This document shows, piece by piece, positions 4,678 through 19,504 of a stretch of 64,000 nucleotides of DNA. This DNA is from the human T2T-CHM13v2.0 reference genome, Homo sapiens. Under the pieces are notes generated by a model, which worked only from the letters and a program-made list of their open reading frames with translations, did no database searches and was not told the origin of the DNA. The first letter of the stretch is position 1. Every line of letters starts with the position of its first letter. A program made the translations under genes and the position numbers. Location of the stretch: assembly GCF_009914755.1 (NCBI RefSeq), contig NC_060930.1. One strand, given 5' to 3'.

Positions 4678-6274
4678 TTTTTATTTACTTATTTCTTATT
4701 ATACTTTAAGTTCTCGGATACATGTGCAGAACGTGCAGGTTTGTTACATAAGTATACAAGTGCTGTGATGGTTTGCTGCACCCATCAACCCGTCATCTAC
4801 ATTAGGTATTTCTCCTAATGCTATCCTTCCCCTATCCCCCCACCCCCCAACAGGCCCCAGTGTGTGATGTTCCCGTCCCTGTGTCCATGTGTTCTCATTG
4901 TTCAGTTCCCACTTACGAGTGAGAACATGGCAGTTTTTGATTTCCTGTTCGTGTGTTAGTTTACTGAGAATGATGGTTTCCAGCTTCATCCATGTCCCTG
5001 CAAAGGACATGAACTCATCCTTTTTTACGGCTGCATAGTATTCCATGGTGTATATGTGTCACATTTTCTTTATCCAGTCTATCATTGATGGGCATTTGGG
5101 TTGGTTCCAAGTCTTTGCTATTGTGAATAGTGCTGCAATAAACATATATGTGCATGTGTCTTTATAGTAGAATGATTCATAATCCTTTGGGTATATACCC
5201 AGTAATGGGATTGCTGGGTCAAATGGTATTTCTAGTTCTAGATCCTTGAGGAATCGTCACACTGTCTTCCACAATGGTTGAACTAATTTACACTCCCACC
5301 AACAGTGTAAAAGCGTTCCTATTTTTCCACGTCATCTCCAGCACCTGTTGTTTCCTGACTTTTAAATGATCGCCGTTCTAACTGGCATGAGATGGTATCT
5401 CATTGTGGTTTTGATTTGCATTTTTCTAATGACCAGTGATGATGAGCCTTTTTTCAAATGTTTGTTGGCCACATATAAATGTCTTCTTTTGAGAAGTGTC
5501 TGTTCATATCCTTCGCCTACTTTTTGATGGGGTTGTTTTTTTCTTGTAAATTTGTTTAAGTTCCTTGTAGATTCTGGATAGTAGCCCTTTGTGAGATGGA
5601 GAGATGCAACAATTTTCTCCCATTCTATAGGTTGCCTGTTTACTCTGATGATAGTTTCTTTTACTGTGCAGAAACTCTTTAGTTTAATTAGATCCCATTT
5701 GTCAATTTTGGCTTTTGTTGCCATTGCTTTTGGTGTTTTAGTCATGAAGTCTTTGACCATGCCTATGTCCTGAATGGTATTTCCTAGGTTTTCTTCTAGG
5801 GTTTTTATGGTTTTGGGTCTTACGTTTAAGTCTTTAATTCATCTCGAGTTAATTTTTGTATAAGGTGTAAGGAAGTAATTTATAGATTCAGTGCCATCCT
5901 CATCAAGCTATCATTGACTTTCTTCACAGAATTAGAAAAAGCTACTTTAAATTTCATGTGGAAGCAAAAAAGAGCCCATGTAGCCAAGACAATCCTAAGC
6001 AAAAAGAACAAAACTGGAGGCATCACGCTACCTGACTTCAAACTATACTACAAGGCTACAGTAAAGCATGGTACTGGTACCAAAATAGATATATAGACCA
6101 ATGGAACAGAACAGAGGCCTCAGCAATAACACCACACATCTACAACCATCTGATCTTTGACAAACCTGACAAAAACAAGCAATGGGGAAAGGATTCCCTA
6201 TTTAATAAATGGTTTTGGGAAAACCGGCTAGCCATATGCAGAAAACTGAAACTGGGTCCCTTCCTTACACCTTA
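4678..6274 (-). mobile_element. 5'-truncated, 5'-inverted (twin-primed) L1, L1PA7/8-like
   Basis: 3' UTR and ORF2 end on minus strand 4678-5875; ORF2 segment on plus strand about 5873-6276; TSD TAGTCAGTCATTTA at 4664-4677 and 6275-6288. Confidence 0.93.
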
Positions 6275-6288
6275 TAGTCAGTCATTTA

Positions 6289-17138: not shown

Positions 17139-19504
17139 CTCTCTTTTTTTCTTTATTAGTCTGGCTAACAGTCTATTTTGTTAGTCTTTTCAAACAAACA
17201 GCTCCTGGATTCATTGATTTTTTGAAGAGTTTTCATGTCTGTATCTCCTTCAGTTCTGCTCTGATCTTAGTTATTTCTTGTTTTCTGCTAGCTTTTGAAT
17301 TTATTTGCTCTTCCACTATGATCAAGTCAGCTTCATCCTTGGGATGCAAGGCTGGTTCAACATATGCGAATCAATAAACGTAATCCATCACATAACCAGA
17401 ACCAATGACAAAAACTACATGATTATCTCAGCAGATGCAGAAAAGGCCTGCAATAAAATTGAACACCCATTCATGCTAAAAACTCTCAACTAGGTATTGA
17501 TGGAACATATCTCAAAATAATAAGAGCTATTTGTAACAAACCCACAGCCAATATCATACTGAATGGGCAAAAGCTGGAAGCATTCCCTTTGAAAATCAAC
17601 ACAAGACAAGGATGCCCTCTCTCACCACTCCTCTTCAACATGGTATGGGAAGTTCTGGCCAGAACAATCAGGCAAGAGAAAGAAATAAGGGGTATTCAGA
17701 TAGGAAGAGAGGAAGTCAAATTATCTCTGTTTGCAGAGGACATGATTGTATATTTAGAAAACCCCATCATCTCAGCCCAAAAACTCCTTAAGCTGATAAG
17801 CAACTTCAGCAAAGTCTCAGGATACAAAATCAATGTGCAAAAATCACAAGCATTCCTATACACCAATAATAGACAGAGAGTCAAATCATGAATGAACTCC
17901 CATTCAGAATTGCTACAAAGAGAATAAAATAACTTAAAAATACAACTTAAAAGGGATATGAAGGACCTCTTCAAGGAGAACTACAAACCACTGCCCAGTG
18001 AAATAAGAGAGGGCACAAACAGATGGAAAAACATTCCATGCTCATTGATAGGAAGAATCAATATTGTGAAAATGGCCATACTGCCCAAAGTAATTTATAG
18101 ATTCAGTGCTATCCCCATCAAGCTACCATTGACTTTCTTCACAGAATTAGAAAAAACTTTAAATTTCATATGGAACCAAAAAAGAGCCCGTATAGCCAAG
18201 ACAATCCTAAGCAAAAAGAACAAAGCTGTAGGCATCATGCTACCTGACTTCAGACTATACTACAAGGCTACAGTAACCAAAACAGCATGGTACTGGTACC
18301 AAAACACATATATAGACCAATGGAACAGAACAGAGGCCTCAGAAATGACACCACACATCTACAACCATCTGATCTTTGACAAACTTGACAAAAGCAAGTA
18401 ATGGGGAGAGGATTCCTTATTTAATAAATGGTGCTGGGAAAACTGGCTAGCCATATGCAGAAAACAGAAACTGGGGATCCTTTCCTTGCACCTTATATAA
18501 AAATTAACTCCAGATGGATTAAACACTTAAATGTAAGACCTAAAACCAAAAAAGCCCTAGAAGAAAACCTAGGCAATACTATTCAGGACATAGGCATAGG
18601 CAAAGACTTCATGACTAAAACACCAAAAGCAATGGCAACAAAAGCCAAAATTGACAAATAGGATCTGATTAAACTAAAGAGCTTCTGCACAGTAAAAGAA
18701 ACTATCATCAGAGTGAACAGGCAGCCTACAGAATGGGAGAAAATTGTTGCAATCTCTCCATCTCACAAAGGGCTACTATCCAGAATCTACAAGGAACTTA
18801 AACAAACTTACAAGAAAATACCCCATCAAAAAGTAGGCGAAGGATATGAACAGACACTTCTCAAAAGGACACATTTATATGTGGCCAACAAACATATGAA
18901 AAAAGGCTCATCATCACTGGTCATTAGAAAAATGCAAATCAAAACCACAATGAGATACCATCTCACGCCAGTTAGAATGGCGATTATTTAAGTCAGGAAA
19001 CAACAGATGCTGGAGAGGACTTGGAGAAGTAGGAACGCTTTTACACTGTTGGGAGTGTAAATTAGTTCAACCATTGTGGAAGACAGTGTGGTGATTCCTC
19101 AAGGATCTAGAACCAGAAATGCCATTTGACCCAGCAATCCCATTACTGGGTATATACTCAAAGGATTATAAATCATGCTACTATAAAGACACATGCACAC
19201 ATGTTTATTGCAGCACTATTCACAATAGCAAAGACTTGAAACCAACCCAACGGCCCATCAATGATGGACTGGATAAAGAAAATGTGGTACATATATACCA
19301 TGGAATACTATGCAGCCATAAAAAAGGATGAGTTCATGTCGTTGAGAGTGATGGAACTACCTAATGTAGATATTGGGCTGATGGATGCAGGAAACCACCA
19401 TGGCACGTGTATACCTATGTAACAAACTTGCACGTTCTGCACATGTATCCCATAACTTAAAGTATTAAGAAAAAAAAAGAAAAAAAACTCACCATGCTCT
19501 GTCT

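What the first reader, a model, noticed from the sequence alone, without database searches (positions are those of the whole stretch)
5360..18990. Two inverted L1 copies 13 kb apart share a nonsense codon and a frameshift: probable ectopic gene-conversion tract
Seen: 5360-5670 (minus) and 18690-18990 (plus) share about 9 variants that differ from the L1PA consensus as I recall it: cagTaaaag, attGttgc, tctCtcca, tctCacaa, gctaCtat, aagTAGgcg (TGG in the third L1 at about 12720), tttatATgtgg (2-nt insertion), aaaGgctc and tagaAaaatg. The ORF track shows the same aberrant peptide [37 protein letters not shown] in both. Their other shared region (5873-6276 vs 18088-18497) is visibly more diverged. 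Inference: a stop and a frameshift in ORF2 are unlikely to come from a common active parent, so sequence was copied between the loci after insertion. Both elements keep their own TSD pairs in direct orientation, which implies non-crossover conversion rather than inversion. No exon lies between the copies, so an inversion allele could be tolerated.
Basis: partly seen in the sequence, partly recalled or inferred. Interest (0 to 1): 0.75.

Follow-up and report, generated by a model that had tools for sequence, protein, structure and literature searches.

The report
Neighbouring L1 fossils swapped DNA patches
Two dead copies of a jumping gene in one intron of the human FIG4 gene share eleven rare changes in one 330-base stretch and none elsewhere, likely because that stretch was copied from one to the other during DNA repair millions of years ago; a third nearby copy carries part of the same set, which suggests it happened more than once.

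Summary
Confirmed and extended. Two truncated L1 copies in a FIG4 intron (A 4664-6288, B 11330-19501) share all nine variants listed, plus two more, in B 18693-19020 / A 5663-5331. They share none in 970 other aligned columns (Fisher p 2e-7). They are reciprocal best hits and sister taxa (support 100) only in that tract, and a 30-nt motif matches exactly only these two places in the genome. Each keeps its own target-site duplication, so there is no net inversion. Best reading: old non-allelic gene conversion, at roughly 35-47% of the elements' age (about 10-20 Myr, inferred). New here: a third FIG4 copy (D, 14 kb before the window) carries 4 of the 11 alleles and 3 more shared with A alone, and a chr2 copy (E) carries 3 in a patch of at most 57 bp. 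That points to repeated exchange at the same L1 segment. Caveats: the identity contrast alone is not significant (p 0.10); direction is unresolved; no primate orthologues were available; longest A-B identity is 69 bp, so a present-day inversion is unlikely. The mechanism is known for Alu, LTR and single L1 loci; no function is shown.

The parts
4664..6288 (.). Element A: 5'-truncated, 5'-inverted L1 (3' part minus 4675-5875; inverted part plus 5873-6276), 14-bp TSD at 4664-4677 and 6275-6288
5331..5663 (-). Shared tract in A (core 5424-5663; extension to 5331)
5900..6225 (+). Three rare alleles in A's inverted part (5900, 5941, 6225) shared with copy D only
   Evidence: A positions read
11330..19501 (.). 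Element B: 5'-truncated, 5'-inverted L1 (inverted part minus 11347-11867 and 17145-17312; 3' part plus 17318-19487, with a deletion of about 160 bp in the 3' UTR near 19343), 19-bp TSD at 11330-11348 and 19483-19501
18693..19020 (+). Shared tract in B (core 18693-18929; extension to 19020), with the ORF2 stop at 18835 and the 2-nt insertion at 18876-77
18746..18764 (+). Three-allele micro-patch also carried by the chr2 copy E; two of the three also by D
11850..17149 (-). Element C: younger, about 5.3-kb L1 inserted inside B's inverted part, 11-bp TSD at 11850 and 17139; shares no rare tract allele with A or B; widens the A-B gap from about 8 to 13 kb

Best explanation
Shown: separate insertions with their own TSDs; tract-limited sharing; no net inversion; nested allele sets (D 4 of 11, E 3 of 11). 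Inferred order: (1) D exchanges with A or B over about 18693-18988 when only four alleles existed, and with A's inverted part; (2) seven more changes, including the stop and the 2-nt insertion, accumulate in that copy; (3) the tract is copied to the other copy; (4) both drift apart again (14 differences in 312 columns). Step 3 is dated to about 35-47% of the elements' age (95% range 18-67%), roughly 10-20 Myr. Inferred and unresolved: direction (about even). Mutation load favours B as donor; the D link favours A as the hub. The pathway (strand invasion and synthesis-dependent annealing between inverted repeats on one chromosome) comes from established knowledge and was not tested. No function is proposed: both copies were already truncated and dead.
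For: 9 shared in 225 columns (11 in 312) vs 0 in 970. Reciprocal best hits in the tract: 95% vs next 91% and 93%, and 97% vs 95% in its 3' half. The partner is absent from the top 40 for three queries outside the tract. Tree: A+B sisters with support 100 on tract columns, split not recovered on flank columns, 52 sequences. Null: 1829 of 1830 pairs of other copies share at most 5 rare alleles per 240 bp, against 8 for A-B under the same rule; the exception is a duplicated pair on contigs 23/24 that shares along its whole length. 30-nt motif with three alleles: 2 exact matches genome-wide (A, B), 0 at one mismatch, 56 at two. TSD pairs intact, cross pairs 5-7 bp only. D: 4 of 11 alleles; chance that one of the 17 single-allele copies lies this close about 5e-4, and of 3 further alleles 1e-3 to 1e-2; 3 alleles shared with A's inverted part, reached by 6 of 820 control pairs and 0 of 41 A-control pairs. 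Tract size fits the 250-bp mean in bioRxiv 10.1101/135152 (abstract passage).
Against: Identity inside the tract is not significantly higher than outside (p 0.10). The tract carries more total change than either copy's flanks (A 16/312 vs 5/197 and 5/316; B 18/312 vs 10/197 and 14/316), which a single conversion from A fits poorly. The extension 18930-19020 has 2 shared but 5 private changes and may be a separate event. D and E were found by searching for these alleles, so one allele in each is given by selection. No orthologue shows the pre-conversion state. An even number of crossovers cannot be excluded from one genome. The 86 control copies are top BLAST hits, few of D's older type (9 by a 3' UTR probe).
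Confidence: 0.8

Rival explanations
1. Capture at insertion: A was born as a chimera, its cDNA copying or recombining with a resident neighbour (B, or D) during integration.
For: L1 cDNA intermediates recombine through 50-150 bp of homology in cell reporters (PMC13526784 passages). A's private rate in the tract (6/312) is close to its flank rate (27/970). The A-D alleles lie in both oppositely oriented parts of A and make up a similar share of D's changes in each (3 of 11 and 4 of 13-14), as if of one early date.
Against: For the A-B tract: A and B are equally diverged where they lie on the same strand (12 vs 11 changes) and share the family-level alleles, so B was not much older; Bayes factor 64 against capture if the age ratio is 0.7-1, but only 2.4 if 0.3-1. 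It needs two switches. For A-D: 0 of 11 D alleles are shared in the 211 bp between the two patches (p 0.03 for one continuous copy).
Confidence: 0.07
2. Inversion and re-inversion: two crossovers between A and B, each with a conversion tract, restored the orientation and left shared alleles.
For: The copies are inverted, 8-13 kb apart, with no annotated exon between the tracts (hub annotation). Close inverted repeats recombine preferentially in somatic data (bioRxiv 10.1101/2020.07.02.163816 passages).
Against: Needs two crossovers at about 93-96% identity and still needs conversion to make shared alleles. TSDs are in the un-inverted state. It does not explain D or E.
Confidence: 0.07
3. Common parent: A and B (and D, E) descend from one minor source element that carried these alleles.
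For: The sets are nested (D, E within A/B), as in a genealogy; D shares alleles with both parts of A.
Against: Zero A-B sharing in 970 columns outside the tract. E shares nothing else with A or B over about 800 columns. D and E conflict: D has 18693 but not 18756, E the reverse. D's 3' UTR is of an older type than A's and B's. A parent with this stop and frameshift would lack the end of ORF2 (cis preference recalled). Only 3 of 46 matches carry both 18746 and 18764.
Confidence: 0.02
4. Convergent mutation, helped by a quasi-palindrome around 18736-18759, produced the alleles separately in each copy.
For: The 18756 allele is the most hairpin-stabilising of 123 possible single changes (ddG -2.4 kcal/mol), 18746 ranks 18th. 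Single alleles recur in 10-33 copies genome-wide.
Against: 18764 ranks 92nd and the other eight alleles lie outside the stem. Chance expectation for A-B is 0.17-0.23 shared events against 9-11 seen. It remains a live reading for E alone: expected chance triples 0.006-0.10 on hand-estimated inputs; I put it at about 0.35 for E.
Confidence: 0.01
5. Assembly artefact: reads of one copy were polished into the other.
For: None seen.
Against: The tracts differ at 14 of 312 columns with no identical run over 69 bp; a collapse would give identity.
Confidence: 0.005

Closest known systems
Non-allelic gene conversion between neighbouring Alu elements (Aleshin and Zhi 2010, seen only as cited in PMC6598467 and PMC8230782 passages; the paper itself was not held)
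   Same: Detected by non-diagnostic shared mutations between neighbours; strongest at short distance.
   Different: Here the family is L1, the distances are 8-13 kb (A-B) and about 19.5 kb (A-D), at or beyond the stated 10-kb range, and a single locus is resolved allele by allele.
Intrachromosomal conversion inside a human L1, locus NCLI34 (Sen et al. 2007, PMC1920257 passages)
   Same: A segment of a few hundred bases (377 bp) in a truncated, inverted L1 whose best match is another place on the same chromosome.
   Different: There one recent event inserted a diverged middle segment; here a homologous tract was replaced, long ago, with nested sharing among three or four copies.
LTR conversion hot spots with several donors (Trombetta et al. 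2016, PMC4921805 passages and part of Table 2)
   Same: Short tracts (14-450 bp maximum, mean 99), intra- and inter-chromosomal donors, patchwork in one part of the element; matches the E micro-patch.
   Different: Those are polymorphic events on human Y haplotypes with known direction; here the events look fixed and old, autosomal, with direction unknown.
NAGC between human gene duplicates (Harpak et al., bioRxiv 10.1101/135152 passages)
   Same: Mean tract about 250 bp; exchange slows as copies diverge.
   Different: Segmental duplicates, not dispersed retroelements; GC bias could not be tested here (5 weak-to-strong vs 3 strong-to-weak).
L1-mediated inversions (Balachandran et al. 2022, PMC9675761 passages)
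   Same: Inverted L1 pair a few kb apart.
   Different: No crossover product here; similarity 93% against a median of 97.1% in those inversions.

Membership tests
Non-allelic gene conversion between transposable elements | Copies arose as separate insertions | tested here: met
   Different TSDs (14 and 19 bp) and different inversion junctions
Non-allelic gene conversion between transposable elements | Shared derived alleles confined to a tract | tested here: met
   9/225 (11/312) vs 0/970, p 2e-7
Non-allelic gene conversion between transposable elements | Partner is the best genomic match in the tract only | tested here: met
   (best hit) vs 13, 14, 46 (not in top 40); each search scored 40 candidates of 1,695-5,659
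Non-allelic gene conversion between transposable elements | Tree differs between tract and flanks | tested here: met
   A+B support 100 in tract, not recovered in flanks
Non-allelic gene conversion between transposable elements | No exchange of flanks (non-crossover) | tested here: met
   TSD pairs intact; an even number of crossovers is not excluded
Non-allelic gene conversion between transposable elements | Raised identity inside the tract | tested here: inconclusive
   95.7% vs 92.4% and 93.8%; p 0.10
Non-allelic gene conversion between transposable elements | Pre-conversion state in an outgroup species; one-way transfer | not testable with these tools
   The genome has no relatives in the search tool (header)
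Non-allelic gene conversion between transposable elements | GC bias of converted alleles | tested here: inconclusive
   5 weak-to-strong, 3 strong-to-weak among 9 scored substitutions
L1-mediated inversion by NAHR | Hybrid elements with swapped TSDs | tested here: not met
L1 source-element sub-lineage | Allele set in many unlinked copies and along the whole element | tested here: not met
L1PA7 / L1PA8 subfamily | Match to the Dfam or Repbase consensus | not testable with these tools
   No consensus library. A, B, D, E group with the older class and C with the younger; the names L1PA7 (A, B) and L1PA8 (D) are recalled

The most novel reading that the evidence does not exclude
One 300-bp segment near the end of L1 ORF2 acted as a recurrent exchange point: three L1 copies spread over 33 kb of FIG4 passed alleles among themselves in at least three events over millions of years, and one short patch moved between chr6 and chr2. 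If such nested tracts are common, old L1 copies are local mosaics, and the segment is a mappable hot spot for L1-L1 repair.
Probability: 0.3. Interest if true: 0.6.

Novelty: new member of a known kind. Interest (0 to 1): 0.42.

Why it matters
It is a clean, allele-resolved case of L1-to-L1 conversion in the human genome, a process documented mainly for Alu and LTR elements. The nested sharing among three neighbours gives an order of events that ape and monkey assemblies can test directly. If general, it biases L1 dating and subfamily calls and offers a way to measure ectopic repair between copies 4-8% apart. For FIG4 the direct consequence looks small: both tracts are intronic and no function is shown. 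One caution is inferred: D and the 3' part of A lie in direct orientation with at least three coding exons between them (1496-1596, 3157-3319, 3722-3819), so a crossover there would delete or duplicate exons, but they are only about 90-92% alike today.

Tried and rejected
Identity contrast as the main proof: not significant; shared rare alleles used instead. Direction from mutation load: Bayes factor 4-9 for B as donor, computed before D was found and offset by the A-D link; direction from D's own load: flat across regions (11/355, 8/197, 13/310, 13/316); from mutation spectrum: uninformative. B's higher divergence may reflect strand rather than age (12 vs 11 on the same strand, 15 vs 32 on opposite strands; Fisher p 0.12), so I did not treat B as older. 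Ordering C against the conversion: C differs from seven younger-class copies at 28/834, but that includes subfamily differences; unresolved. Conversion involving C: at most one allele shared with A or B, each a family-level variant. B-D exclusive sharing: one rare allele (18580) and one common (19177), at chance level. D-E sharing (18452, 18537): read as older-family alleles, not tested further. D's best hits over 451 bp do not include A or B in the top 40, as expected for an old, partial exchange, and a result against strong D-A homogenisation. Hairpin origin of the cluster: fits two alleles at most. Neighbouring repeat pairs inside the fetched loci were listed but not analysed. A link to a known FIG4 deletion or inversion: nothing in the listings, in PMC13432296 passages or in five supplementary files of PMC9675761 (one file unreadable; the coordinate prefixes searched rest on a recalled GRCh38 position).

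Full report
Anatomy. The region holds three L1 elements. A (4664-6288) is 5'-truncated with an inverted 5' part and a 14-bp TSD. B (11330-19501) has the same kind of structure, a 19-bp TSD and a deletion of about 160 bp in its 3' UTR. C (11850-17149, minus, 11-bp TSD) is a younger element inserted inside B's inverted part. The 3' part of A is on the minus strand and that of B on the plus strand, so the two tracts are inverted, 13 kb apart now and about 8 kb apart before C. By the hub's annotation no exon lies between them. The names L1PA7 for A and B and L1PA8 for D are recalled and come from no call.

Observation. I polarised variants against 86 other copies: 28 top hits of B's tract, 29 of A's 3' flank and 29 of B's 3' flank; the four loci that are A or B themselves were left out. 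Counting only columns where one base holds 85% or more of the controls, plus one rare shared allele in a variable column (18905), the core has 9 shared, 3 A-private and 6 B-private events in 225 columns. The 970 columns outside have 0 shared, 27 A-private and 43 B-private. Fisher p is 2.6e-7 (core) and 1.5e-7 (11 in 312); chance expectation is about 0.2 events. The ORF2 frame that reads through in C has a stop in both A and B and shifts at the 2-nt insertion.

Controls. Among 37 fully covering copies not chosen on the tract, 36 have none of ten scored alleles and 1 has one; among the 28 chosen on the tract, 5 have none, 20 one, 2 two and 1 three. Of 1830 pairs among 61 controls, 1829 share at most 5 rare alleles in any 240 bp, against 8 for A-B; the exception is a pair on contigs 23 and 24 that shares 30 along its whole length, the pattern of a duplication. 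A and B are each other's best hit in the tract and absent from each other's top 40 outside it; these searches score only 40 candidates each. A tree of 52 sequences joins A and B with support 100 on tract columns and does not join them on flank columns. A pattern search with a 30-nt motif holding three of the alleles finds 2 exact matches (A, B), none at one mismatch and 56 at two, of which 55 carry one allele and 1 carries two.

More than two copies. One of the 56 matches lies in FIG4 itself, about 14 kb before the window (copy D, L091, minus strand, 19.5 kb from A's tract). D carries 4 of the 11 alleles (18693, 18746, 18764, 18988) and lacks the other 7. It also shares 3 rare alleles with A alone, in A's inverted part, and 1 rare allele with B alone. 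D was found through one allele; the chance that one of 17 such copies lies this near is about 5e-4, and that it has three more of the set 1e-3 to 1e-2. Three shared alleles in the inverted part are reached by 6 of 820 control pairs. D's 3' UTR is of an older type than A's, and A and B are not among D's top 40 hits over 451 bp. A second pattern search, from D, gave 46 matches; only D, B and one chr2 copy carry both 18746 and 18764 (A is missed through its own 1-bp deletion). That copy, E (L092), has 18746, 18756 and 18764 in a patch of at most 57 bp and shares no other rare allele with A or B. On rough, hand-estimated inputs such a triple arises by chance 0.006-0.10 times per genome, and one of the three alleles strongly stabilises a local hairpin. 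I rate E about 65% a real short conversion between chromosomes.

Mechanism. Shown: separate insertions, tract-limited sharing, intact TSD pairs, nested subsets. Inferred: a break in one copy was repaired on its neighbour without crossover. The order that needs no patchy repair is an early exchange of D with A or B, seven further changes, and then copying of the whole tract between A and B. With B as donor and equal ages, the share of the elements' history that follows the A-B event is 0.35-0.47 (95% range 0.18-0.67). With L1PA7 at about 30 Myr (PMC7449397 passages) or L1PA8 near 40 Myr (recalled), that is roughly 10-20 Myr. Direction is open: load favours B as donor by a factor of 4-9, whereas D's only exclusive partner is A. 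Capture at A's insertion is disfavoured for the A-B tract (factor 64 if the copies are of similar age, 2.4 if the age ratio is left free) but remains possible for the A-D sharing. Inversion followed by re-inversion cannot be excluded from one genome. A common parent and pure convergence are rejected for A-B.

Unexplained. The tract carries more total change than the flanks, most clearly in A (16/312 vs 10/513). The A-D alleles fall in two patches on either side of A's inversion junction with an unshared gap of about 230 bp; I have no single event that accounts for both.

Comparison. Conversion between neighbouring Alus within about 10 kb is described (PMC6598467 and PMC8230782, passages). So are short multi-donor tracts in LTRs (PMC4921805, passages), a 377-bp intrachromosomal conversion in one human L1 (PMC1920257, passages) and a mean tract of 250 bp in human duplicates (bioRxiv 10.1101/135152, passages). 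Repair of an L1 break from other L1 copies in mouse cells (Tremblay 2000) I saw only as a citation. PMC7827986 (passages) added only general context. I found no description of this locus in the listings, which cover open-licence papers and preprints only, nor in five supplementary files of PMC9675761.

Verdict. A real and well-supported L1-L1 conversion tract, a new member of a known kind, made more interesting by nested sharing with a third and perhaps a fourth copy. No function or present-day variant is shown. Interest 0.42; recurrent hot-spot reading 0.3 probable, 0.6 if true.

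Noticed in passing
window 13220-13307 (-), inside element C: A 3'-truncated 5S rRNA copy (Rfam RF00001, 61.7 bits, E 8.8e-13) with a 16-bp TSD at 13204 and 13308 and no poly(A): fits the tailless retropseudogenes of PMC5322556 (passages). 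It makes a three-level nest: 5S in C in B.
   Followed up: partly
G000:C6:110862518-110862579 (+), about 55 kb before the window: Another local L1 copy among the 40 best hits (95%) of E's 62-bp patch. It is in neither pattern list, so it may simply be an unmutated family copy; its sequence was not read.
   Followed up: no
L091 (G000:C6:110903250-110904750, -): Copy D is in direct orientation to the 3' part of A with at least three FIG4 coding exons between them; about 90% identity over 1.08 kb. Its ends and TSD were not seen.
   Followed up: partly
L092:1-867 (G000:C2:195371170-195372036): Copy E ends abruptly inside ORF2 with no 3' UTR or poly(A).
   Followed up: no
window 18088-19463 vs 4700-6262: B has twice A's private changes where they lie on opposite strands (32 vs 15 in 614 columns) but the same number where they lie on the same strand (11 vs 12 in 356), with many A>G in B; possibly transcription-linked strand asymmetry (recalled mechanism; Fisher p 0.12).
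   Followed up: partly
L086 and L087 (contigs 24 and 23): A duplicated pair sharing 30 rare alleles along its length, probably the X-transposed region (label recalled); served as a positive control.
   Followed up: no
contigs 13, 14, 15, 21, 22 and others, matches: Many of the 33 copies with the 18746 allele alone cluster on short arms and near centromeres, probably one L1 multiplied by segmental duplication.
   Followed up: no
window 804-1177 and 8651-9012: A diverged direct repeat pair (67% over 388 columns); the first overlaps the annotated enhancer at 948-1167.
   Followed up: no
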